From NCBI GenBank assembly GCA_963665295.1, contig OY762209.1, forward strand, positions 4,352,001 to 4,416,000: a DNA stretch of 64,000 bases, in the 5' to 3' direction. The stretch is from Syntrophorhabdaceae bacterium (GTDB taxonomy: Bacteria; Desulfobacterota; Syntrophorhabdia; Syntrophorhabdales; Syntrophorhabdaceae). Below the pieces are notes generated by a model. It saw nothing but the letters and a program-made list of their open reading frames with translations. It was not told the DNA's origin and did not search any database. Of the stretch, positions 30,981 through 47,582 are shown in pieces; position 1 is the first letter of the stretch; every line of letters begins with the position of its first letter. Made by a program: the position numbers and the translations under genes.

Positions 30981-32384
30981 CTAGAGCGACGCTTTGAATA
31001 CCCCGAAAAGGCCCTTTGGCAGGATGCCCATGTAGAGTATCAGCAGGACGAATACATAGCACATTGACTTCTGAAAAAGAGTAAGACGGATAGGCTGAAT
31101 CTCGTTGGTGACTTCCTTTGAGTAACTCATCCGCACGAGGTTCAGATAGTAAAAAATCGAGATTACCGTGTTCACCGCGCCTATAATCACAAGCGTCAGA
31201 TGACCCTGTTTGAAGGCATTGGTAAAGAGAAAAAGCTTTCCTGTAAAGCCGCCTGTCGGAGGAATGCCTGCGAGGGAAAAAGCAGCTACGGCAAGGGTCA
31301 GGGCCAGGACCGGCGCCCTTCTGGAGAGGCCTGCCAGGTCATCAAGCACTACATTCTCGCCCCTGGTGGAAATCAGCACGATTACATAGAGGCACGCCAG
31401 ATTCATAAGCATGTAAATCGCAATGTAATAAACCGCAGACGCACTTCCATCCTTAGTAAGCGAGAGAATACCCATCAGCAGATACCCCGCATGGGCAATA
31501 CCGGAATAGGCCAGCAGCCTTTTGACATCCTTCTGTACCAGACCGACAATGTTCCCGAAGGTCATGGAGAGCGCCGCCAGCACGATAAGTATATTGACGA
31601 ACTGAGCGGAAAAGGAGGGAGCGAGCATGGTAAATCTTATGAGCAGAGCAGCTCCCGCAAGCTTCGGTATGGTCGCGATAAAACTGGTGGTAACGTTTGA
31701 AGCTCCTTCATAAATATCGGGGGCCCAGAAATGGAAGGGGAAGAGCGACAGCTTGAAGAAGAACCCCGAGAGCGTGAGCGTGAGCGCAAGGATACCGAAG
31801 GGGTGGTCGAGAAATAGCGGCAGCACGCGGACGATATCAGCAAGGTATGTGGACTGGCAGATAGCGTAGATGTAGCTCATGCCATAGAGCATGACCCCCG
31901 TCGAGATTGCGCCAAAAAACAAATACTTCACCGCCGCCTCCCACTGCACCTTCGTTTGCCCCTTCCGCAACGGAACCATCACGTACAGGCTGTACGAAGA
32001 GACCTCAAGGGAGATGACGATGGAAATAAGCTCGACCGAACTCACGAGCATCATAAGTCCGAGCACGGAAAAAGAGAGGAACATAAAGTATTCCGCTATG
32101 TACTCTCCCTCGATGTCATCCGTTCTGTCGATCATAAAAATAACCATACACAGCCCGAAGGCAAGCATCACCTTAAAGAGCTGCGAAAAAAGGTCCACAC
32201 TATAGGCGCCGTTAAACAACTGCGCCTTCGCCGGGATACAAAAAACAGCCAGCACCAGAGGCACCAGAGCGGCTACCCTTAAGAGGGGAAGAGACACCCC
32301 TCCTCTGCCTTTGTTCAGAGATACGAACACAAAGATCACCGCGAGGAGGAGAACGGATATTTCAGGAAGCACAAACGTAAGCAT
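30981..32384 (-). CDS. nuoN: Complex I-like subunit N
   Basis: EAAVKY, FKLSLFPFHFWAPDIYEGA, KRLLAYSGIAHAGY, SLAGIPP. Confidence 0.92.
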   Translation of the reverse strand: MLTFVLPEISVLLLAVIFVFVSLNKGRGGVSLPLLRVAALVPLVLAVFCIPAKAQLFNGAYSVDLFSQLFKVMLAFGLCMVIFMIDRTDDIEGEYIAEYFMFLSFSVLGLMMLVSSVELISIVISLEVSSYSLYVMVPLRKGQTKVQWEAAVKYLFFGAISTGVMLYGMSYIYAICQSTYLADIVRVLPLFLDHPFGILALTLTLSGFFFKLSLFPFHFWAPDIYEGASNVTTSFIATIPKLAGAALLIRFTMLAPSFSAQFVNILIVLAALSMTFGNIVGLVQKDVKRLLAYSGIAHAGYLLMGILSLTKDGSASAVYYIAIYMLMNLACLYVIVLISTRGENVVLDDLAGLSRRAPVLALTLAVAAFSLAGIPPTGGFTGKLFLFTNAFKQGHLTLVIIGAVNTVISIFYYLNLVRMSYSKEVTNEIQPIRLTLFQKSMCYVFVLLILYMGILPKGLFGVFKASL

Positions 32385-32395
32385 AATCGGACCCC

Positions 32396-33889
32396 TTAAT
32401 GGAGATAATTCTGTAATTGGCTGCTGAGATGCGCCAGCGTCTTTTCCACGGTCAATACAAAGGGACGGGGAAAGAGACCCATCCAGATTACAAATACCAC
32501 TAACGGGGCGAGATAGACGATTTCCCTCAGATTCATATCGGGAATCAACCTCTTATCCTCTCTGCCCCACACAATCTGCTTTAAGAGACGAAGCATATAT
32601 GCTGCGGCAATGATCGCGCCCACCACCGCAAAAAACCCCGCTACCTTGTTGTTGATGAATGTGCCTATGAGTACGTATAACTCACCGACAAAGTTATTGG
32701 TGCCCGGGAAGGCGAAGGACGAGATCGCGAAAACACCGAAGAAACCCACGTATATGGGCATAATCTTACTGAGCCCCGAGTTGTCGTAAATCTCCCTGCT
32801 GTGAGTGCGCTCATAAATGATACCCACACAGAGAAAGAGTCCTCCTGTGGTAATTCCGTGGTTAAGCATCTGCAGGAGCGCCCCTTCGAATCCGAACAGA
32901 GTGAGACAAAAGATACCCAAGGTGGCAAAACCCATATGTGCGACGCTTGAATACGCAATCAGTTTCTTCATATCGGTCTGGCTGAGGCACACGAACCCGC
33001 CGTATATGATCCCGATCACGGACAGTATGATCATTAGAGGTGCAAAGTAGACACTTGCCTTCGGCGTCATAGGCAAGCAGAATCTCAGAAATCCGTAGGT
33101 CCCCATCTTAAGAAGCACACTTGCCAGGAAAACACTACCCACCGTAGGCGCCTCCGTATGCGCAGCAGGCAACCACGTATGAAATGGAAACATGGGCACC
33201 TTGATGGCGAAGGCCAGGGCAAATGCGAGAAACACCCACATTTGAAAGTTGAAACTATAATCTCTGAACATGGCTTCGGGAATGCTGAAGGTTCCCGTGG
33301 CGAGATAGATCGCAATGATGGCGACAAGGAGAAATACGCTTCCGAAAAGCGTGTATATGAAGAACTTGATGGATGCATAGTCTTTCTTCGGCCCGCCCCA
33401 TACGGCTATGAGGAGGTACATGGGAATAAGCATGGCCTCCCAGAACACATAGAACAATATGAAATCAAGGGCACAGAAAACCCCGATCATGGCGGTTTCC
33501 ATCATCAGAATGCAGAACATGAACTCCTTCACCCTGAGTTGGATGGCCTTCCACGAAGAGAGCACGCATAAAGGCGTGAGCATCGTCGTGAGAAGAATCA
33601 GGAAAATCGTGATTCCATCAATACCAAGAACATAATTAATATTGTACGCTGGTATCCAGGGGATCAGTTCCGCGAACTGAAACATGTGGGTGGACGAATT
33701 GAAATTTGTATAAAGAGCGAGAGAGATAAGGAAATTGATGATTCCCGTAACCAGGGCAGTTACCTTTATAGCCCTGTCGTTCCTGAGGAGCAGAAGCACG
33801 CATGCCCCCACCAACGGCAGAAATATCGTGGTCGAAAGGATCGGAAAGCTGAGGGGATTCATTATGAGAAATTGGTCCGTACGCATCAT
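32396..33889 (-). CDS. nuoM: Complex I-like subunit M
   Basis: FYVFWE, KVPMFPFHTWLP, LLKMGTYG, KKLIAYSSVAHMG. Confidence 0.93.
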   Translation of the reverse strand: MMRTDQFLIMNPLSFPILSTTIFLPLVGACVLLLLRNDRAIKVTALVTGIINFLISLALYTNFNSSTHMFQFAELIPWIPAYNINYVLGIDGITIFLILLTTMLTPLCVLSSWKAIQLRVKEFMFCILMMETAMIGVFCALDFILFYVFWEAMLIPMYLLIAVWGGPKKDYASIKFFIYTLFGSVFLLVAIIAIYLATGTFSIPEAMFRDYSFNFQMWVFLAFALAFAIKVPMFPFHTWLPAAHTEAPTVGSVFLASVLLKMGTYGFLRFCLPMTPKASVYFAPLMIILSVIGIIYGGFVCLSQTDMKKLIAYSSVAHMGFATLGIFCLTLFGFEGALLQMLNHGITTGGLFLCVGIIYERTHSREIYDNSGLSKIMPIYVGFFGVFAISSFAFPGTNNFVGELYVLIGTFINNKVAGFFAVVGAIIAAAYMLRLLKQIVWGREDKRLIPDMNLREIVYLAPLVVFVIWMGLFPRPFVLTVEKTLAHLSSQLQNYLH

Positions 33890-33893
33890 TTAT

Positions 33894-35654
33894 TTACCTG
33901 CCCATTATAATAAACCAGACGATGAAGAAGAAAATGAATAAAGACATCCCGATATAGGCCTGAACCTTTCCGGTCTGCAGCTTCCTGACCACAAAACCCA
34001 AGGTCCTCACTGAAACTGCTGATCCGTCCACCACGCCGTCAATGATATGCTGGTCAAAGGCATAGGAAGCTTTTGCTTTTGCAAAAAGACTCCTCAATCC
34101 TACCGTCCGATACAGCTCGCCCCAGAAAGCGTCCACGGGCGCAATAATCCTGTTGTCAACCCACAGGAAAGCCCTACCTCCCTTTCTGTAGAAGTAATCC
34201 ACATCCAGGTTCATCTTATCCTCGGGTGTCAGTTTCTTCACCAACAGGAAGAACACGAGTCCTGTAAAAGAAAGGATCTGCAGCATCTCCGCGAAATGAT
34301 GCGATGTGTACGGGTGATACTCCGCCTTGAACGGAAGAAGTACATACAATGCGCCGGGAAACACACCGATAAGGAAACACAGAGCTGACGTAAGGCCCAT
34401 AGCCCAAAGCATGTTCTTTGGAGGTTCTTTTGCCTTTATAGGCGCTTCCTTCCCGAAGAACGCAAAGTAGGTCACTTTCAAACCAACGGAGAGGAACGTA
34501 CCGATACCCGCCAGGTTCATGAAGGTGAAGAGCCACAGCCGCCCCGTCTCGTGGGCCGACGCGGTAATCATCGACTTGCTCACAAAACCGCTGAAGAACG
34601 GGAAGCCGGAAATGGATATAGCCCCCACTATGTAGAAAATCATGGTAACAGGCATATATTTGTAAAGGCCACCCAACTGAGACAGCTTTGCCGTGCCCGT
34701 CATGTAGAGAATGGACCCGGCACCCATGAACAGAAGCGCTTTATAAAGTATGTGAGCGAAGGCGTGGGCGCACGCCCCGTTGAGCGCCAACTCCGTGCCG
34801 ATCCCCACTCCCGCCACCATGTAGCCGACCTGACTTACTATATGGTACGCAAGAACCCTGCGGATATCGTTTTCTATCACGGCGTAAAACACCCCGTAGA
34901 CTGTCATTGCCGTCCCAAGAATCGCGAGGATCTCGAAGCCTGCAAATCCCCTCGCGAGCACATAAACTGCTGTTTTCGTGGTAAAGGCGCACATGAGAAC
35001 CGCCCCTTCCACGGTCGACTCCGGATACGCGTCGGGTAGCCATGCATGGAGCGGTATCACCGCAGCGTTAAGGGAGAATCCGGCGAGGATCAGATACTCC
35101 GCCAGTCCCGCCTGCTCCTGCAAAATCCTCGTGAAAACGAAGTTACCCGTCTTCCCGTAGTAAAGCATCATACCCATGAACAAACAGAGTCCGCCGAATA
35201 TGTGCACCAGGAGATACCGGTATCCCGCATCGACCGACTTCTGTTCTCTTCTGTACCAGACCAGGAAGACCGACGAGAACGCCATGACCTCCCAGAAGAT
35301 GAACAGTGTCAGATAATCTCCCGCGAATATGGCCCCGAGTGATCCGCCGATATAGAAGGATCCGGCTATGTAATGACCGTCCTCCTTGCGGTGAAGGCCG
35401 TACAGGGCGCCCAGGAATGCCATGATCGTAAAGACCCATGCGAAAACCAGACTGAGTTTGTCCACCCTGCCTAAAACGATGTCCGTATTGAGAAACCGGA
35501 TCGACCCAAAGACTCCCTCCTGCATGAGGGCCACGTCAATGATAGAGAGAATCGGGATGAGAAGGGCGAAACCCTTCTTTGCCTTGCCCTTAAAAAGGGG
35601 AAGGAGAAGACTCCCGATAAAGAAAAAGATTGCCGGATGCACCCACTTATCCAT
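33894..35654 (-). CDS. Antiporter-like subunit with NuoL-type C-terminal lateral helix (NuoL/MrpA-D hybrid)
   Basis: FWEVM, LHAWLPDAYP, RRVLAYHIVSQVGYM; C-terminal DQHIIDGVVDG...LQTGKVQAY; start ATG 35654. Confidence 0.8.
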   Translation of the reverse strand: MDKWVHPAIFFFIGSLLLPLFKGKAKKGFALLIPILSIIDVALMQEGVFGSIRFLNTDIVLGRVDKLSLVFAWVFTIMAFLGALYGLHRKEDGHYIAGSFYIGGSLGAIFAGDYLTLFIFWEVMAFSSVFLVWYRREQKSVDAGYRYLLVHIFGGLCLFMGMMLYYGKTGNFVFTRILQEQAGLAEYLILAGFSLNAAVIPLHAWLPDAYPESTVEGAVLMCAFTTKTAVYVLARGFAGFEILAILGTAMTVYGVFYAVIENDIRRVLAYHIVSQVGYMVAGVGIGTELALNGACAHAFAHILYKALLFMGAGSILYMTGTAKLSQLGGLYKYMPVTMIFYIVGAISISGFPFFSGFVSKSMITASAHETGRLWLFTFMNLAGIGTFLSVGLKVTYFAFFGKEAPIKAKEPPKNMLWAMGLTSALCFLIGVFPGALYVLLPFKAEYHPYTSHHFAEMLQILSFTGLVFFLLVKKLTPEDKMNLDVDYFYRKGGRAFLWVDNRIIAPVDAFWGELYRTVGLRSLFAKAKASYAFDQHIIDGVVDGSAVSVRTLGFVVRKLQTGKVQAYIGMSLFIFFFIVWFIIMGR

Positions 35655-35892
35655 AGAAATCCTCGTCCTTTGCCAGAAATAAATGGGCAATGCCCTTTGC
35701 TACCTTAATGAGGAGGAAACAGCCCACTATTCCGAACAGGGTCCAGAAGGCGTAAATCTTGTCGATGAGGTAGTGGGCATGGGCCCTCGACAGCATCACA
35801 TCGAACAGTACCAAAGCAACCAGATAGATAATCAATACCTTCTTCAGGGCTGCCATGTGCGATCTTAAAAACTCGATATACCTTAGTATCAT
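35647..35892 (-). CDS. Small two-TM hypothetical subunit within the operon
   Basis: 81 aa, two hydrophobic stretches, overlaps both neighbours. Confidence 0.75.
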   Translation of the reverse strand: MILRYIEFLRSHMAALKKVLIIYLVALVLFDVMLSRAHAHYLIDKIYAFWTLFGIVGCFLLIKVAKGIAHLFLAKDEDFYG

Positions 35893-37361
35893 GAGAAGAG
35901 CCTTCCTATGAGGTGCGTGAAAAAGCCCGGGAAAAGACCAAGGGCAACAGAAATCAGAGATGCCAGCACAAGGGGAACTACCATTGTCATGGGCGCTTCC
36001 TTAATGCCTGCCTTAGTCCAGCCGTGTTTCCTCCCCTGAAAGAATGCCCTTATGGTTATGGGAGCGAAATACGCCACGTTCAGGATCGTGCTCGCCATAA
36101 GGACAATCAATATGGGAATGTTATGGATCTCGAGGGCGCCGTTCAAAAGGTACCATTTCGTGACGAAACCCGCCACGGGAGGCGCGCCGATCATACTCAA
36201 CGAACCAATGGCGAAGGCACCCATAGTAAAGGGCATGGCGTAGCCTATACCCGCCATATCGCTGATCTTCTTCTTGTGAGTGGCCACATAAATCGCCCCG
36301 GCACAGAAGAAGAGGGTGATCTTGCTGAATCCGTGATTGACGATGTGAAGCACCCCGCCTGTAATGCCCGACACATCAAGAAGGGCGACACCCAGGATAA
36401 CGTAGGAGAGCTGACTTACCGTAGAGTAGGCAAGCCGTGCCTTGAGGTCATCCTTCGTGAGAGCGATAATGGACGCCACCAGGATCGTGAATGAAACCAC
36501 ATAGGCCGTACACAGGCCGAGATTGAGGTTCTGAAGTAACTCAACTCCAAAGGTAGAGAGCATGACCCTCGTTATACAGAACACGCCGGCCTTCACGACT
36601 GCGACTGCATGGAGCAGCGCGCTTACCGGTGTGGGAGCGACCATTGCAGAGGGGAGCCAATTGTGGAGAGGCATGATCGCGGCCTTCGCGAACCCCGCGA
36701 TAAAGAGCACGTACGTGACGCTCACCCACACGCTATCCGCGTTTTTGGGGAAGATTCCTCCTGTTATATTGTCTGCGAAATCCAACGTCCCCGTGAACAC
36801 ATAGGTGAGAACCACGGCTGGAAGGAGAAAACCCTTCGACGTTCCCATGAGGTATACGATGTATTTCTTTGCCCCAGCGTATCCTTCCCGATCCTGGTGG
36901 TGGGCGACAAGGGGATATGTAAAAATTGTGATAACCTCATAGAACAGGTAAAGTGAGAAAAGGCTTCCCGAGAAGGCGACTCCCTGCGCTCCCAGGATGG
37001 CGATGGCGAAACACGTATAATACCGCGTCTGCGCGTGTTCATCCAAAGACCTCATGTACCCGATGTTATAGGAGGTCGCGAAGATCCATAGAAAGGACGA
37101 CACGATGCCGAAGATCAACGATAGCGCATCGACTCTGAAGTTAAGCGAAATACCCGGCGCGATAGATGACAGGGTGTAGACAATCCTGCCGCCGTGCATC
37201 ACTAGGGGCACCATGGCCGCTACGGATATGAAGGTCAGCACCGCGCCCGCCAGTGACCAGAATTCGCGGACGTTCGGCTTCTTCCCCGACAACGATATGA
37301 GAAGGGTCGTTATGAGTACGATTATTATAGGTATGAGAGGTTGTGCGCTTTCAATCAACAT
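35889..37361 (-). CDS. Extra MrpD/NuoL-like antiporter subunit
   Basis: LFYEV, KAAIMPLHNWLPSAMVAPTPVSALLHAVAVVKAG, RLAYSTVSQLSY. Confidence 0.85.
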   Translation of the reverse strand: MLIESAQPLIPIIIVLITTLLISLSGKKPNVREFWSLAGAVLTFISVAAMVPLVMHGGRIVYTLSSIAPGISLNFRVDALSLIFGIVSSFLWIFATSYNIGYMRSLDEHAQTRYYTCFAIAILGAQGVAFSGSLFSLYLFYEVITIFTYPLVAHHQDREGYAGAKKYIVYLMGTSKGFLLPAVVLTYVFTGTLDFADNITGGIFPKNADSVWVSVTYVLFIAGFAKAAIMPLHNWLPSAMVAPTPVSALLHAVAVVKAGVFCITRVMLSTFGVELLQNLNLGLCTAYVVSFTILVASIIALTKDDLKARLAYSTVSQLSYVILGVALLDVSGITGGVLHIVNHGFSKITLFFCAGAIYVATHKKKISDMAGIGYAMPFTMGAFAIGSLSMIGAPPVAGFVTKWYLLNGALEIHNIPILIVLMASTILNVAYFAPITIRAFFQGRKHGWTKAGIKEAPMTMVVPLVLASLISVALGLFPGFFTHLIGRLFS

Positions 37362-37367
37362 AGTCTA

Positions 37368-37694
37368 TCAGTCCTTCATCTCCTTGAGCTTATCGCCTTC
37401 AATATGCCCATACCGTCTGAATATAAGAATAATGATGCCAAGGGCGATGGCGGCCTCCGCTGCTGCGATACCCATAATGAAGAGGGTGAATATCTGGCCT
37501 GCCGTATCTCCCGCTCTGGTGAACCGATTGAAGGCTACAAAGTTAACGCCTGCACCATTCATAATCAGTTCAAGGGATATGAGCATCCCTATAAGGGTCC
37601 GTCTGTAGAAGAGACCCAGTATACCGGCACACAGGAGAAACAGGGCGACATAAAGGTAAATGCTCAGATTGTTGTAAAGGAGGGTTCCCGTCAT
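37368..37694 (-). CDS. nuoK: Complex I-like subunit K
   Basis: LISLELIMN, IAAAEAAIAL. Confidence 0.92.
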   Translation of the reverse strand: MTGTLLYNNLSIYLYVALFLLCAGILGLFYRRTLIGMLISLELIMNGAGVNFVAFNRFTRAGDTAGQIFTLFIMGIAAAEAAIALGIIILIFRRYGHIEGDKLKEMKD

Positions 37695-38200
37695 TTTTCC
37701 CCCTTAGAGAAAAGGGCAAGCATAATTGCGCCGATGATACTCACTACGATAAGTAGAGAGATTAGTTCGAAAGGAAGCATATAAGTGTCAAAAAGGGCTC
37801 TTCCGATGTCCTTCGTCGTGATGACCGACAACTTGTTCTCAGTCCGGAAGGTACCTTTGATGAAGGTGACAAATACGAAGAAGCTGAAAACCGGCACGAT
37901 GAGGGCGGTGAGAAGCTTGGATAACGAATTCCATCCTTTGGGCGCCTTCATGTGCAAGTAATGGGGCCCGGCTATCATCACCGCGAAAACGATGAGAATC
38001 GAGATGGCGCCCACGTATATGAGTATCTGCATCATGGCGATAAACGGGGCGTTCAGGTAAATGTAAAGACCCGAAATCCCGAACATGGTGATGATAAGGG
38101 AGATGAGTGCATAGATCATGGAGCTTGCCGCCGCAGTTGCAAGCGCACCAAAGAGGGTAACCGCAATCATAAGGATAAAGACAATTTCGCCGAAGGTCAT
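37691..38200 (-). CDS. nuoJ: Complex I-like subunit J
   Basis: QILIYVGAI, LPFELISLL. Confidence 0.9.
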   Translation of the reverse strand: MTFGEIVFILMIAVTLFGALATAAASSMIYALISLIITMFGISGLYIYLNAPFIAMMQILIYVGAISILIVFAVMIAGPHYLHMKAPKGWNSLSKLLTALIVPVFSFFVFVTFIKGTFRTENKLSVITTKDIGRALFDTYMLPFELISLLIVVSIIGAIMLALFSKGEK

Positions 38201-38644
38201 CTATTTCCTCTTCTCATATTCTTTCACAAGGTCAAATTGACATCCTGCCCTGGTGTATACCGCGATATTGTAATCCGCAGAGAAAGCGAGGGCGTCCACG
38301 GGGCAGACCTCAACACATATGCCGCACTGACTGCACGTGGTGAAATCAAGAACATATTCAGTGCATGTCTTCTTTTTATCGCCTTCTTTCTTCTCTCCCT
38401 CGATCTTTTTTATTGTTCCTGAGGGACAAGCCTTGATGCACGCCATACACACGATGCACTTCGTACGCTCGGGTCTCTCATCGTCGCCGACGAGCTTCGT
38501 ATGACCACGGAACCTCGGCGCCATTTCAAAAGTCCGCCTCGGGTACTGCACGGTTACCACAGGCTGGAACATGGCCTTGATGGTGACTCCCAATCCTGCG
38601 ACAAGGGAGACCGCACCTTTTACGATTTCGAAAGGTAGTATCAT
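38201..38644 (-). CDS. nuoI: Complex I-like subunit I (two 4Fe-4S)
   Basis: TVQYP, CIVCMACIKACP, CSQCGICVEVCP; ATG overlaps nuoH stop. Confidence 0.92.
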   Translation of the reverse strand: MILPFEIVKGAVSLVAGLGVTIKAMFQPVVTVQYPRRTFEMAPRFRGHTKLVGDDERPERTKCIVCMACIKACPSGTIKKIEGEKKEGDKKKTCTEYVLDFTTCSQCGICVEVCPVDALAFSADYNIAVYTRAGCQFDLVKEYEKRK

Positions 38645-39615
38645 AAGAGCTTTAACATTCCTCCCGTTAAGAGCAGCCATAGAAACGAAACCGGTATCAG
38701 TATCTTCCAGGAGAAGTTGAGGAGTTGATCAAATCTGACCCTCGGGAAGGTCCACCTGAACCAGACGATGACGAAGACAAGGCTGAAGGATTTTATGAAG
38801 AACCAGATGATTCCCGGCAGAAAGGGTCCCTGATAGCCGCCCAGGAAGAAAGTCACGGCAACGGCGCTTATAATGAATATGTTCGTGTACTCGGCAAGAA
38901 AGAAGAGTGCAAACCTCATTCCCGAATACTCCGTGTGAAAACCCGCCACCAATTCACTCTCTGCCTCGGCAAGATCGAAGGGCGTCCTGTTCGTTTCGGC
39001 TACGCCTGCAATGAAATAGATGAGGAAGGGAATGGGGTGGTACAGGATGAACCAGCTTCCCTTCTGCGCCTCCACAACGTCCTTGAGGGAAAAGGAACCG
39101 CACATGAGGATGACCGGCAGAAGGGCCAGGAGAAGGGGTATCTCGTAGGCGATATTCTGAGCGACACTTCTCATGGCGCCGATGATCGAATACTTGTTGT
39201 TTGATCCCCAACCCGCAACAAGCAAAGACAGCACCGACAGGGAAGAGAAGGCGAAGATCACCAGGATTCCCACGTTAATGTCTTTTACCTGGAGGAAGGA
39301 GTCAAAGGGTATCACCACAAAGGACACAAGAACAGGGATGAAGATAAGGATGGGGGCCAGGAAGTAAAGCGGTCTCTCCACGTGCTTAGGGGTGATAATA
39401 TCCTTGCCCAGCAATTTCAGCCCGTCGGCAATAGCCTGAATAAGACCGAAAGGACCAACTTCCTTGGGGCCTATCCTCCTTTGCATATGCGCTGAAACCT
39501 TACGTTCCACCCACGTAAGTATGAGTGTGTTGACCACCACCATGGCGATTACGCCCACGAGACCGATGACGGTCCTTACCACTTCCGCTCCCAGTATGTT
39601 TATGATCTCGTTCAT
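38641..39615 (-). CDS. nuoH: Complex I-like subunit H
   Basis: ERKVSAHMQRRIGP, AETNRTPFDLAEAESELVAG. Confidence 0.95.
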   Translation of the reverse strand: MNEIINILGAEVVRTVIGLVGVIAMVVVNTLILTWVERKVSAHMQRRIGPKEVGPFGLIQAIADGLKLLGKDIITPKHVERPLYFLAPILIFIPVLVSFVVIPFDSFLQVKDINVGILVIFAFSSLSVLSLLVAGWGSNNKYSIIGAMRSVAQNIAYEIPLLLALLPVILMCGSFSLKDVVEAQKGSWFILYHPIPFLIYFIAGVAETNRTPFDLAEAESELVAGFHTEYSGMRFALFFLAEYTNIFIISAVAVTFFLGGYQGPFLPGIIWFFIKSFSLVFVIVWFRWTFPRVRFDQLLNFSWKILIPVSFLWLLLTGGMLKLL

Positions 39616-39649
39616 TCGTTTATCTTCTCAGCTTCGCGCGTCACGTTTT

Positions 39650-41224
39650 TCACCTGTCTATCTCCGGTATGACAAGATCAAGGCTTCCCAATATGGAAAT
39701 GGAGTCCGAGAGAAGGGTCCCCTCTGCAAGATACGGAAAAACTATGAGGTTCGAGAAAGAGGGCACCCGCCACCTCATTCTATATGGCGTGTCGGTCCCG
39801 TCACTCACGATGTACACCCCGACCTCTCCCCGTGGGGATTCGACTGTATGGTATACGTCACCCACAGGGGGCTTCATCTTCTTGGGAACCTTTTCTGCGA
39901 CAAAAGGACCGTCGGAAAGGATCTCCAGCGCCTGTTCTATTATTTTCATGCTTACTTCCATGTCGTGCACCCTGATCATGTACCTGTCGAGGGCGTCGCC
40001 GCTTGTTTCGCACGGCACGTCGAAGTTCAGCCGGTCATAGGCCGCGTAAGGCTCCGCTTTTCTGATATCATACGGGATGCCCACACTTCGAAGCACGGGG
40101 CCGGAAAAACCGTATTTTCTGGCTTTCTCCGCGTTCAGGATGCCTATGCCCTTGGTTCTGTTGATGAAAATGACATTTTTGGTAACGAGGGTCTCGTACA
40201 TTTTCAACCGACCGTACATGCGTTTTACAAATGCCCTGGTTCGATCGACAAACTCCTCGTCCACATCATTGTATAGCCCGCCGAATCTCATGTAGCAGTA
40301 GGTGAGCCTCGATCCCGTTACCCTCTCAAGGATATCGTTGATCAACTCCCTGTCGTCGAATATATAAAGGAAAGGTGTGAGCCCTCCAAGGTCTGCGAGG
40401 TAGGCGCCAAGCCAGAGGAGATGGCTTGATATTCTGTTCAGCTCTATAGTGAGCGTCCTCAGCACCTGTGCCCTCTCGGGGACCGCAATGTTGCAGAGTT
40501 TCTCCACGGTGCATACGTAGGCCGCATTAAAACTCATGGGACCCAGGTAATCCATCCTTCCCGTGTTAGGCAGGAACTGCATGTACCCGCGGTTCTCGCC
40601 CATCTTCTCCTGCATGCGGTGGAGGTATCCCAGGACGGGTTCAGCGGACATTACGTACTCGCCGTCCATTTTCAGGACGACTCTCAGCACTCCGTGTGTG
40701 CTTGGATGCTGAGGGCCAAGATTAATATTGAAGGCGTCTTCCTCTTCCCTTACTTTGAATGAAGCAAGACGTTCTCTATCCTCGGGCGGGACGAGCACCT
40801 TCCCCTTACGAAGGGGATAGATGTCTATACCGTCATGAAGGAAGAAATATCCCATATTAGGGTGCCCGTCAAACACTACTCCGAAGAACTCGTGAATCTC
40901 CCTCTCATACCACGCCGTACCGTCGAATATGGTCGACATAGTGTCCACATGGGGATTATCGGGGTCTACCTTGAGCGCTACCTTTACTCTGCACGGGGAT
41001 TGATAGCTGTTAAAAAAGTAGAGAACCTCCAGGTATTCCTTGTAATCGACGCAAAGCATATCTTCGAGATAGAACTTTTCGTCATCAAAGAATTGCACTA
41101 TGTTGCGGAGGTTGTCCTTCGACGCGGACACACTGACGTGGTAGCCTCTTTCCGAATAGGCTATTTCCGTGGGTTCCGCTCCGGCGACGGCCGTTTTGAG
41201 TTTTTGTATGACGTCTGTTACCAT
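39650..41224 (-). CDS. nuoCD: Fused complex I-like subunits C and D
   Basis: [16 protein letters not shown] then [24 protein letters not shown]; no NiFe CxxC motifs. Confidence 0.92.
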
Positions 41225-41730
41225 TTAGCCTCTGGTTTAGGGAATCGTCTTGTCCCGGTCAGTTTTTCTTCGAGTTTGAGGAAGCCTTCAAGAAGGGCTT
41301 CGGGTCTCGGGGGGCAACCGGGAACGTACACATCCACGGGGACGAGCTGGTCAACCCCTTCGATAACATTGTATTGACCCTCGAACAGAAAAGGGCCTCC
41401 CGATATGGCACAATTACCCATGGCTATTACCCATTTGGGTTCCGGCATTTGATCATACAGAGTTTTGAGGAGGGGCGCCATTTTCTTTGTGACAGTCCCT
41501 GAAACGATCATCACATCTGCCTGACGGGGGGATGCCCGGAAAATCTCAGCGCCGAATCTTGCCAGATCGAACCGTGCCATAGCCACTGCCATCATCTCGA
41601 TTGCGCAGCACGCAAGGCCGAAGGTCATGGGCCAGAGGGAGTTCGCACGGGCGAGATTGAGGACGTCGTCGAGAAGCGCGAATTTTATTATAGGATCTTT
41701 CGTTTCCAGGTAAACACTCCTTTTCCCCAC
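41218..41730 (-). CDS. nuoB: Complex I-like subunit B (start GTG 41730 or CTG 41709)
   Basis: [31 protein letters not shown]. Confidence 0.94.
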
Positions 41731-42071
41731 GCATAGATTATGGCGAGAGCGAGAATGAGCACAAAGGCGAGGAGTGAGTAAAACTCGTAAACCTTGGCCC
41801 CTTTCGTGTAGCTCAACGCCACGGGGAAGAGATAAAGGACATCAACGTCAAAGGCTATGAATATGAGAGCGTATATATAATAGGCGGCGCTGTATCTGAT
41901 CCATGCACCGCCAAAAGGTTCAACGCCGCACTCATAGGTGGCAAAGGTTTTCTTGCCCCTTGTACGAGGTGCCAGGAGGTAGGAGATTCCTACGGGTACC
42001 AATGTGAAAATAATCGCCACCACGAAGAAAACAAGGACGTGAAAGAATTCCGGTAAGCTGTCCGCTATCAT
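41688..42071 (-). CDS. nuoA: Complex I-like subunit A
   Basis: [24 protein letters not shown]. Confidence 0.92.
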
Positions 42072-45773: not shown

Positions 45774-47582
45774 ATGAGAAGAAAGCCGGGTTTCATCTTC
45801 AAAAACATTTCAAAGGGCACGAAATACCCTCTGATTGACGTGGAGGAACCCGAGCTTTACCGGGAAGTCTTTCCCTTTACGGAAGTATGTAAAATAAAAT
45901 TCGATCATAAAATCGAGCTTATCGATCCGCCCGAAGAGATTTACATCACGGATACCACGTTCAGGGACGGCCAGCAGTCAAGGCCGCCCTTTACTGCAGC
46001 ACAAATCGCCGACCTTTTTGACTTTCTTCACAGGCTTTCCGGGCCCAAGGGCGTCATCAGGCAGAGTGAATTCTTCGTCTATACCGATAAGGACCGGGAT
46101 GCTCTCGACAGATGCCGTGAACGGGGGTACCGTTACCCTGAAATCACGGGATGGATAAGGGCAAAAAAGGAAGATTTGCAGATTGCAAAAGATCTCGGCC
46201 TCAAAGAGGTAGGAATCCTCACCAGTTGCTCTGACTACCATATCTTTCTCAAACTGAAAAAGACGCGTTCCCAGGCATTGGAAGACTACGTGGGGATCGT
46301 CGAAAGCGCTCTCGACTACGGGATTATACCCAGGTGCCATTTCGAGGATGTCACAAGGGCCGACATATACGGGTTCTGCGTGCCCTTTGCCCAGAGGCTC
46401 ATGCGTATCGCGGACGAGACGAAAATCCCCATCAGGATAAGATTATGCGACACCCTTGGCGTCGGCGTCACCTACCCCGGGGCAGCGCTCCCCAGATCCA
46501 TCGGAAAGCTCATAAGGGCCATGATCGACGATGCAGGGGTCCCTTCCGAGTGGCTTGAATGGCATGGCCACAACGATTTCAATAAGGTGGTGGTCAACAG
46601 CGTCAGTTCCTGGCTCTATGGATGCGCTTATGTAAACGGCACGCTCCTCGGAATCGGTGAGAGGACCGGAAACGCTCCTATCGAGGGTCTTATAATGGAA
46701 TACATAAGTCTCACCGGCGATACCAACGGCATGGACACCCAGGTGATTACCGAGGTCCGGAACTATTTCGAAAAAGAACTGGGACACCTCATTCCGAGAA
46801 ACCAGCCCTTCATAGGAGTAGATTTCAACGCCACGTCGGCAGGCGTCCACATAGACGGCATAATCAAGAATGAGGAAATATACATCCCCTTCGATACGGA
46901 CAGGATACTCAACAGACCCCTGACCATAAATATCACCGATAAATCGGGTCTCGCAGGCATCGCCCACTGGATAAACTCACACTTTGCCCTCGTGGGAAAG
47001 GACAGGATCGAAAAAACCGATCCAGGGGTGGCAAAGATAAACAAGTGGATACTGAAACAGTACGACGAAGGCCGCGTGACCGCGATTTCAGACAACGAGA
47101 TCGAGCACCTCGTGCGAAGGTATGTCCCGGGAATATTCGTATCCGAGTTCGAACTTCTCAAGAAGCGCGCCTACGATATGGCAGCTCACCTCATAGAGAA
47201 GTATATCGAAGACTCTGCCGTCAAGACCATGGTTCCGGAGAAACAGGAAGAAGTCCTTATGAATATCGTCGAGGAACACCCGTACATTCAGTTCGCCTAC
47301 ATCGTGGACCGCCAGGGCATAAAGATTACGAAGAATATCAACCAGGTAATCGACCGCGCCAAGTACCACAAGATAGGGCTCCACGAAGATTTCTCCGACA
47401 GGGACTGGTTTATCAATCCCATCTCCAATGGGAAGATCAGTGTCACGAGCCTTTATTCATCGAGGATCACCGGAGCCCTGTGTGTCACCGTCTCCGGCCC
47501 CATCAGGGATGAGGTAGGCGAGATCGTGGGGGTGCTGGGATTAGACATAAAATTTGAAGATCTCACGAAGGCTGAGGAGTAG
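45774..47582 (+). CDS. Re-citrate synthase-like DRE-TIM enzyme with C-terminal Cache/PDC-like domain
   Basis: [42 protein letters not shown]-terminal DRDWF...[17 protein letters not shown]...GVLGLDI. Confidence 0.75.

What the first reader, a model, noticed from the sequence alone, without database searches (positions are those of the whole stretch)
30981..42071. Headless complex I-like operon with four antiporter-like subunits and an extra small membrane subunit
Seen: gene order nuoA-B-CD-H-I-J-K, then a 490-aa MrpD-like gene, an 81-aa two-TM gene, a ~586-aa antiporter with a NuoL-type lateral-helix tail, nuoM and nuoN. The genes are tightly packed and there is no nuoEFG. NuoD lacks NiFe-binding CxxC pairs, so this is not a group 4 hydrogenase. 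Known: canonical complex I has three antiporter subunits (L, M, N), and described four-pump variants duplicate NuoM. Inference: here the extra pump is an Mrp-like module placed before the L-like subunit. That could mean higher ion stoichiometry or Na+ coupling for a ferredoxin- or partner-fed quinone reductase, or reverse electron transport in a syntroph. The nearby divergent ubiE/menG fits a menaquinone acceptor.
Basis: partly seen in the sequence, partly recalled or inferred. Interest (0 to 1): 0.72.

Follow-up and report, generated by a model that had tools for sequence, protein, structure and literature searches.

The report
Four-antiporter complex I without NADH head
This is an intact respiratory complex I operon with no NADH-input genes, in which a three-gene cassette shared with Mrp antiporters replaces the usual NuoL subunit and likely lengthens the ion-pumping arm to four units; that arm design is already published as 'green complex I', so this is a new, biochemically untested member of a known kind.

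Summary
In detail: 12 packed genes, nuoA-B-CD-H-I-J-K, a 490-aa antiporter-like gene, an 81-aa two-helix gene, a 586-aa antiporter-like gene, nuoM, nuoN; no nuoEFG.

It is not new. Rhizobial 'green complex I' has the same arm (52-54% identity), and Desulfurivibrio dismutans has a headless 13-gene cluster with the same labels and order, expressed in proteomics. The scan also found this before on other DNA.

Added here:
- The cassette also ends three-MrpD Mrp operons.
- The 586-aa subunit is a chimera: Mrp-type body, NuoL-type tail. Its lateral helix spans 77 residues against 52 in NuoL, about one subunit longer.
- Its TM7 lysine is Asn in 20 of 20 complex-I copies, so a fifth pumped proton is not assured.
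- Na+ coupling is unsupported (no MrpE in the genome).
- The genome has a second, complete nuo operon with EFG, but 18 relatives carry this operon with no NuoL or cut-off-level NuoG found.
- In a same-genus genome a three-pump, flavin-headed operon occupies the same chromosomal slot.

Most likely role: H+-coupled electron transfer between menaquinone and a ferredoxin-level partner, probably run in reverse (inferred).

The parts
41688..42071 (-). nuoA (127 aa)
   Evidence: PF00507
41218..41730 (-). nuoB (170 aa), tandem-Cys N2 ligands C41, C42, C107, C139
   Evidence: PF01058, TIGR01957 over cut-off
39650..41224 (-). fused nuoCD (524 aa); no CxxC; His173/His177/Tyr226 of the quinone site
   Evidence: PF00329+PF00346, TIGR01962-like; residue roles recalled
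38641..39615 (-). nuoH (324 aa)
   Evidence: PF00146, PRK06076.1-2 over cut-off
38201..38680 (-). nuoI (159 aa), 2x[4Fe-4S]
37691..38200 (-). nuoJ (169 aa)
   Evidence: PF00499
37368..37694 (-). nuoK (108 aa)
   Evidence: PF00420, PRK05715 over cut-off
35889..37361 (-). 490-aa antiporter-like subunit ('D2'); keeps E142, K226, H251, K257, H339, H343, K347, K402
   Evidence: PRK08375.1-1 over cut-off; residues; tree
35647..35892 (-). 81-aa two-helix membrane protein, conserved member of the cassette
   Evidence: 73 of 80 related loci; 114 representatives; model; weak complex support
33894..35654 (-). 586-aa antiporter-like subunit ('D3'): Mrp-type body, TM15, lateral helix, last TM; TM7 Lys replaced by Asn196
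   Evidence: PRK12668 over cut-off
33969..34199 (-). lateral-helix span D486-G562 (77 residues); residues ~513-579 are NuoL-like, ~481-518 Mrp-like
32396..33889 (-). nuoM (497 aa), TM12 Glu
   Evidence: TIGR01972 over cut-off
30981..32384 (-). nuoN (467 aa)
   Evidence: TIGR01770 over cut-off

Best explanation
These 12 genes encode a complex-I-type oxidoreductase with no NADH module of its own, in which a three-gene cassette shared with Mrp antiporters replaces NuoL, likely giving four antiporter-like subunits in a row that couple proton flow to electron transfer between menaquinone and a ferredoxin-level partner. Shown: gene set, families, residues, the chimeric tail, the distribution. Inferred: the order K-N-M-D2(490)-D3(586), with D3 distal and its lengthened lateral helix running back over D2, M and N to the NuoL-type last helix; the 81-aa protein packing on D3; menaquinone as the quinone; H+ rather than Na+ as the ion. 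The partner at NuoI is most likely free ferredoxin or a separately encoded flavin/Fe-S module. In this host (no dsrA, no Rnf, ETF loci with candidate quinone-reducing partners) I favour net reverse operation, the proton gradient driving electrons from menaquinol to a low-potential carrier (about 0.5; forward about 0.35). Whether the fourth subunit adds a fifth proton is about even, because D3 lacks the TM7 lysine.
For: Same arm order J-K-D2(487)-hyp(84)-D3(586)-M-N on two annotated rhizobial plasmids; D2, D3, M are 54, 52, 52% identical to S. meliloti. Tree: the 490-aa protein falls in a D2 clade and the 586-aa body in a D3 clade (SH-like 100 each), both with rhizobial and Mrp-operon members, neither with NuoL or NuoM. 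Lateral helix D-to-G span: 77-78 in 20 of 20 complex-I copies and 3 of 3 rhizobial ones; 52 in 29 of 32 NuoL; 58 in 31 of 45 Mrp copies. NuoL-tail profile scores 25-63 bits on 23 of 23 complex-I copies and at most 8 bits on 45 of 45 Mrp copies; in a second set 22 of 22 copies followed by nuoM have it and 7 of 9 others lack it. PMC9040806 reports a further 26-residue insert in the five-subunit form. None of 18 relatives with a close copy had NuoL, cut-off-level NuoG or the alternative flavin head found. D. dismutans expresses both D-type subunits with NuoD/M (PMC12142623 Table S1). 81-aa protein against D3(1-520)+D2(90-488): weak support, score 0.47, best control 0.00, runs agree in at least 94% of contacts, partner pLDDT at least 68; the mark was reached by 116 of 157 solved and 2 of 215 mismatched pairs, but at 0.60 or under by only 18 solved ones and both mismatches.
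Against: No biochemistry or structure of this arm was found (paper searches; PDB search 32). TM7 Lys is Asn in D3, and Ala at that Lys abolishes antiport in Bacillus MrpA and MrpD (PMC5703873). Counted from the end of TM15 the linker is only about 12 residues longer than NuoL's (hand count), so '+25' depends on equating the two D-x-x-Y motifs. 14 of 45 three-subunit Mrp copies also have long tails (80-104) of another sequence type. The model is unreliable at 533-567 (pLDDT under 50). The NuoI loop is near neutral (+1) and shows no clear ferredoxin patch. This genome has a real NuoEFG and eight other NuoF-like modules, and all 41 genomes searched have NuoG-like modules. Direction was not tested and terminal reductases were not surveyed. 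No RNA data.
Confidence: 0.68

Rival explanations
1. The arm has four antiporter-like subunits but pumps no more than ordinary complex I: the distal 586-aa subunit, lacking the TM7 lysine, serves as clamp and proton outlet while the 490-aa subunit does the work of NuoL.
For: Asn at TM7 in 20 of 20 complex-I copies and 3 of 3 rhizobial copies. The 490-aa subunit has the TM8 His+Lys pair described for MrpA (PMC7419157) and the TM11 His/His/Lys set of NuoL. A three-pump operon fills the same slot in a same-genus genome.
Against: D3 keeps E122, H203, K227, H297 and K360 invariant over 67 aligned sequences; 14 of 45 stand-alone Mrp copies also carry Asn, and the Lys form is nested among them, so Asn is tolerated in presumed working transporters.
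Confidence: 0.4
2. The enzyme is not headless in the cell: it docks a separately encoded NuoEFG or a NuoEFG-like formate-dehydrogenase or hydrogenase module.
For: Second operon with true E, F, G; eight more NuoF-like modules. In 2 of 22 complex-I-type loci (L026, L031) NuoE/F/G- and molybdopterin-type genes follow nuoN directly. Rhizobial operons include EFG.
Against: 0 of 18 relatives with a close copy have NuoG over cut-off or the family's alternative head, so the second operon's EFG cannot be the general partner; no head genes follow nuoN in 11 other complex-I-type loci examined.
Confidence: 0.3
3. The Mrp-derived cassette makes the enzyme a Na+ pump or adds Na+/H+ exchange.
For: Cassette shared with Mrp operons in 47 of 80 loci; NCBI names say 'Na(+)/H(+) antiporter subunit D'.
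Against: In the Mrp structure the Na+ path is assigned to MrpBCEFG and the MrpA C-terminus, and the MrpA/MrpD interface is sealed (PMC7419157); those subunits are not in the operon and MrpE was not found in this complete genome.
Confidence: 0.08
4. The three cassette genes form a separate transporter that is merely co-transcribed.
For: The cassette has its own ancestry.
Against: The operon has no other NuoL, and D3 carries a NuoL-type tail when nuoM follows and mostly not otherwise.
Confidence: 0.04

Closest known systems
'Green complex I' of Rhizobium/Sinorhizobium/Ensifer (Degli Esposti & Martinez Romero 2016; original not read, known from passages of PMC9040806 and PMC7415380)
   Same: Arm J-K-D2-small-D3-M-N; 52-54% identity of D2, D3, M; same 77-residue helix span, NuoL-type tail and TM7 Asn.
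   Different: Rhizobial operons include nuoEFG and a rearranged order (J..N, A..G, H/I opposite); here canonical order, fused CD, no EFG, anaerobic host. The rhizobial A, C, D, H, I, J match this genome's second operon better than this one.
Headless Nuo cluster RS03515-03575 of Desulfurivibrio dismutans AMeS2 (PMC12142623; passages and Table S1 rows seen)
   Same: Same order by NCBI labels and gene sizes, no EFG; both D-type subunits detected, up in sulfur disproportionation.
   Different: C and D separate; the passages seen call it an ordinary NuoAHJKLMN arm and do not remark on four antiporter subunits; sequences not compared here.
Complex_I_3 of Ca. Manganitrophaceae and 2M complex I of Nitrospira (PMC9040806, section 10 read; Chadwick 2018 not held)
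   Same: Extra antiporter-like subunits with a lateral helix about 26 residues longer per added subunit; Complex_I_3 uses the same two MrpD-like subunits.
   Different: One NuoM here, so four subunits rather than five; 2M keeps a true NuoL.
Three-MrpD Mrp operons (E-F-G-B-C-D1-D2-small-D3)
   Same: Same terminal cassette at 43-56% identity.
   Different: No redox module, have the small Na+ subunits, non-NuoL tail; 31 of 45 keep the TM7 Lys.
Headless 11-subunit complex I-like enzymes (Fpo', cyanobacterial NDH-1; recalled)
   Same: No N module; donor presumed or shown to be ferredoxin.
   Different: Those have a true NuoL and three antiporter-like subunits.

Membership tests
Green complex I | Two MrpD-like subunits replace NuoL in a nuo operon | tested here: met
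Green complex I | D2/D3 orthologous to the rhizobial subunits | tested here: met
   54% and 52% identity, best hits in genome; same clades; complex-I D2 plus rhizobial D2 group at only 83 support
Green complex I | Rearranged rhizobial gene order with nuoEFG in the operon | tested here: not met
   canonical order, no EFG; filed therefore as the green-type membrane arm, not as the rhizobial operon
Canonical 14-subunit complex I | NuoEFG and a true NuoL | tested here: not met
   TIGR01974 168 bits vs cut-off 407.5; tree
Complex I superfamily, quinone-reactive | NuoB tandem Cys, NuoD His/His/Tyr, no NiFe CxxC | tested here: met
   residue roles recalled
Complex I superfamily, quinone-reactive | Quinone reduction coupled to proton translocation | not testable with these tools
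   needs enzyme assay
Group 4 [NiFe] hydrogenase | Two CxxC pairs in the large subunit | tested here: not met
   Cys at 58, 78, 238, 244, 310, 405 only
2M complex I | Second NuoM and NuoL with insert | tested here: not met
   490-aa subunit is outside the NuoM clade and has Lys, not Glu, at TM12
Mrp Na+/H+ antiporter | Small subunits B, C, E, F, G | tested here: not met
   none in operon; MrpE family not found in genome; B, F, G not searched genome-wide
Antiporter-like proton pump subunit (586 aa) | Glu TM5, Lys TM7, Lys/His TM8, Lys/Glu TM12 | tested here: inconclusive
   E122, K227, K360 present; TM7 is Asn196
Antiporter-like proton pump subunit (490 aa) | Glu TM5, Lys TM7, Lys/His TM8, Lys/Glu TM12 | tested here: met
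   E142, K226, H251+K257, K402; E142, K226, K402 in 69 of 69 aligned
Known small membrane subunit folds (81 aa) | Structural match to a solved chain | tested here: inconclusive
   Foldseek none; VIA best Z 5.1, rmsd 7.6, 78 aligned

The most novel reading that the evidence does not exclude
The cassette makes a true five-proton complex I whose distal subunit pumps without the canonical TM7 lysine, and Syntrophorhabdus-like syntrophs use the headless form in reverse to lift electrons from menaquinol to ferredoxin, having swapped it into the chromosomal slot that sister genomes fill with a three-pump, flavin-headed complex: a natural pair of interchangeable gears for one job.
Probability: 0.2. 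Interest if true: 0.7.

Novelty: new member of a known kind. Interest (0 to 1): 0.3.

Why it matters
The architecture is published and common (the 586-aa family was found in 94 of 201 genomes of the phylum, Mrp-type copies included), so the locus itself is not surprising. It matters as a test object. No structure or assay of this arm was found in the searches run. It offers a direct test of whether proton stoichiometry scales with the number of antiporter-like subunits, whether the TM7 lysine is dispensable in a distal subunit, and how syntrophs without Rnf reduce low-potential carriers. The family-level either/or with a three-pump operon at one locus gives a ready comparison.

Tried and rejected
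ubiE adjacency as evidence for menaquinone: rejected; 1 of 11 fetched relatives' four-antiporter regions has it next to nuoA, 8 have the lytic-transglycosylase gene there, 2 neither. A basic ferredoxin patch in NuoI: the loop between the clusters has net +1 to +4 in four-antiporter copies against 0 to -2 in three EFG-bearing ones, too weak to use. Fold of the 81-aa protein: no Foldseek match and only background Z values; the Atlas held neither it nor one homologue. Expression: no RNA holder listed, so no evidence either way. Promoter-like sites were at chance level (12 vs 12.1 expected). Direction of transfer (Mrp to complex I or the reverse): the D3 tree root is unresolved, and two Nitrospiraceae complex-I copies group with Mrp copies, which hints at more than one event; the IQ-TREE run did not finish, so only FastTree was used and no clade test was run. 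Helix length alone as a subunit counter: rejected as a general rule because 14 of 45 Mrp copies have long tails; the tail type is the cleaner marker. Chadwick 2018 and Pereira 2011 were not held. Passages of PMC4453560, PMC6129605, PMC12361115, PMC5419562, PMC4967309 and PMC13490349 did not describe this arm; PMC4758237 mentions a 'NUO11+M' operon in Desulfovibrio africanus that I did not check.
Full report
Observation. The 12 genes are present as described, on the minus strand, tightly packed, and the family scans agree with every name except NuoL. The window is C1:4352001-4416000 of a single-contig 5.5-Mb genome. The closest named relatives of the 586-aa protein are Syntrophorhabdus and Syntrophus MAGs at 78-81% identity.

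What replaces NuoL. A genome scan with the 586-aa protein confirmed 580 stretches and kept the best 80. By gene order, 22 of 80 lie in nuo operons (18 by script; I added two with frameshifts and two the script missed), 47 of 80 end Mrp operons of the form E-F-G-B-C-D1-D2-small-D3 (E, F, G and C-like genes named from one example each), and 11 of 80 are unresolved. The 81-aa gene was detected between the two large genes in 73 of 80 loci, including all 22 nuo loci. So the unit is a three-gene cassette. In a FastTree of 107 antiporter-like sequences with tails removed, the 490-aa protein sits in a D2 clade and the 586-aa body in a D3 clade, each with support 100 and each apart from NuoL, NuoM and NuoN.

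The lateral helix. Of the 80 loci, 75 gave complete D3 proteins (2 broken and 3 incomplete dropped). The span from the D-x-x-Y motif after TM15 to the Gly before the last helix is 77-78 residues in 20 of 20 complex-I copies (window included), 58 in 31 of 45 Mrp copies and 80-104 in the other 14; the 11 unresolved ones are mixed (one search counts one NuoL among the Mrp rows, removed here). In NuoL it is 52 in 29 of 32 (the 30 best loci plus two), 53 in 2 and 48 in 1. A profile of NuoL tails scores residues 513-579 of the window protein at 40 bits, 23 of 23 complex-I copies at 25-63 bits and 45 of 45 Mrp copies at 8 bits or less, while Mrp-tail profiles match mainly the first 35-40 residues. 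A second, partly overlapping set of 31 gave 22 of 22 NuoL-type tails where nuoM follows and 2 of 9 where it does not. The model shows helices at 486-537 and 545-559 and a last helix at 563-585, with low confidence at 533-567, and matches MrpA and NuoL structures. The simplest reading is a splice inside the helix: an Mrp-type body and first helix segment joined to the NuoL segment that crosses M and N. 52, 77 and the further 26-residue insert of the five-subunit form (PMC9040806) then step by about one subunit each. Caveat: counted from TM15 the gain over NuoL is only about 12 residues, and the direction of transfer is not fixed by the tree.

Pumping residues. The 490-aa subunit keeps Glu142, Lys226 and Lys402 in 69 of 69 aligned copies, plus His251/Lys257 and His339/His343/Lys347. 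The 586-aa subunit keeps Glu122, Lys227 and Lys360 but has Asn196 where solved NuoL/MrpA/MrpD have Lys. Asn is in 20 of 20 complex-I copies, 3 of 3 rhizobial copies and 14 of 45 Mrp copies. Ala at that Lys abolishes antiport in Bacillus Mrp (PMC5703873, passages), and the Glu/Lys pair is proposed as the coupling switch (PMC7419157, passages). Four subunits therefore need not mean five protons.

The 81-aa protein. It has 114 representatives, nearly invariant F49, G54, K66, Y80, two long helices with a loop bearing moderately conserved His38, His40 and Asp44, and no known family or fold. Folding it with D3(1-520) and D2(90-488) gave weak support: 0.47 against a best control of 0.00, one control being replacement of D3; contacts agree at 94% or more and partner pLDDT is at least 68; passes at 0.60 or under came from 18 of 157 solved complexes and both false passes among 215 mismatches. 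With the conserved gene order, a structural role on D3 is likely but not shown.

Is it headless? The genome has a second complete operon with E, F, G and L over cut-off and eight more NuoF-like modules. Among 41 genomes, 20 match the 586-aa protein; 18 relatives have a close copy at 77-89%, and all 11 of those 18 that I fetched show the full 12-gene order. None of the 18 has NuoL (20 of 41 do), NuoG over cut-off (12 of 41 do) or the family's alternative head (17 of 41 do). In the host family 16 of 24 have this operon, 6 of 24 a NuoL operon, 2 neither. These are related MAGs, 90-100% complete, so this is 'not found', and kin are not independent. In same-genus G001 the slot between ubiE and the lytic-transglycosylase gene holds a different operon, A-B-C-D, a 649-aa Fe-S/FAD protein, an 810-aa NuoG-like protein, H-N with true NuoL; G009 has it beside the same transglycosylase gene. 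The two designs look interchangeable. Against a strictly headless reading, all 41 genomes have NuoG-like modules below cut-off, and two more distant loci have E/F/G- and molybdopterin-type genes right after nuoN.

Likely chemistry. NuoB and NuoD keep the N2 ligands and quinone-site residues and lack NiFe ligands (roles recalled). The genome has a futalosine-pathway-like cluster (two PF02621 genes over cut-off, MqnE- and MqnC-like genes just under), seven ETF loci, one beside a 688-aa Fe-S/CCG protein and three beside FixC-like genes under cut-off, and no Rnf, MrpE or dsrA found. With recalled potentials (ferredoxin about -450 mV, NADH -320, menaquinone -74), NADH to menaquinone cannot push four or five protons against a normal gradient, whereas ferredoxin can; run backwards, more protons per cycle let menaquinol reduce lower-potential carriers. 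For an organism likely to load menaquinone from acyl-CoA oxidation, reverse flow is the more useful direction. This is inference.

Comparison with what is known. PMC9040806 (passages and section 10) states that green complex I of rhizobia has two MrpD-like subunits in place of NuoL; PMC7415380 (passages) calls its role hypothetical. The 586-aa protein matched 101 plasmid records, 96 of them Sinorhizobium, Rhizobium or Ensifer; two annotated ones show the same arm including the small gene, plus EFG (the third had no annotation). D. dismutans has a headless 13-gene cluster with the same labels; Table S1 lists the MrpD-family subunit at log2 fold change 2.2 (p 0.002), the D3-type subunit detected only on sulfur, NuoM 2.6 and NuoD 2.2, with the small protein, A, J, K and N not detected. 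The D3 family is in 94 of 201 sampled genomes of the phylum. Six paper searches showed no description of the chimeric tail, the Asn or the small subunit, but the 2016 and 2018 primary papers and their supplements could not be read and may cover them. Earlier scan notes, read after my reading was set, reach the same verdict on other genomes.

Verdict. Real, intact, common and of a published design: a new member of a known kind, interest 0.3. The open and testable part is stoichiometry, donor and direction.

Noticed in passing
L127 (G001:C138), L128, L129: Sister genomes carry a three-pump complex I whose head is a 649-aa protein (NuoF-type Fe-S region plus FAD/NAD(P)H oxidoreductase domain, no NuoF FMN domain hit) and an 810-aa NuoG-like protein; in G001 it fills the same slot as the window's operon.
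   Followed up: partly
L033, L039, L041, L042, L052, L054, L076, L079, L086 and others: Asn-type three-MrpD Mrp operons have a longer, partly hydrophobic D3 tail, and many have an extra ~47-aa single-helix gene between D2 and the small gene; no Pfam hit.
   Followed up: partly
L026:12072-17728; L031:9102-14567: Four-antiporter operons followed directly by NuoE/NuoF-oxidoreductase-fusion/NuoG/molybdopterin-type genes: candidate heads.
   Followed up: partly
G000:C1:2585055-2588050, 4701414-4704409, 5383030-5386025: Three apparently identical copies of a NuoE/F/G-like module next to MvhD- and HdrA-like genes (labels recalled).
   Followed up: no
G000:C1:3886539-3889540 and 5053300-5056301: Two apparently identical etfBA-fixC-like copies.
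   Followed up: no
G000:C1:3582275-3582604: ATP synthase c-like subunit with Gln and Glu-Ser-x-x-x-Tyr but Leu where Na+-binding rings have Thr (motif recalled); ion specificity unclear.
   Followed up: no
L020, L021: Two relatives' operons are split by several frameshifts, probably assembly errors.
   Followed up: no
window 45774-47582: 602-aa protein resembling a Re-citrate/isopropylmalate-type synthase with a C-terminal extension, upstream of leuC/leuD/icd-like genes (labels recalled, not scanned).
   Followed up: no
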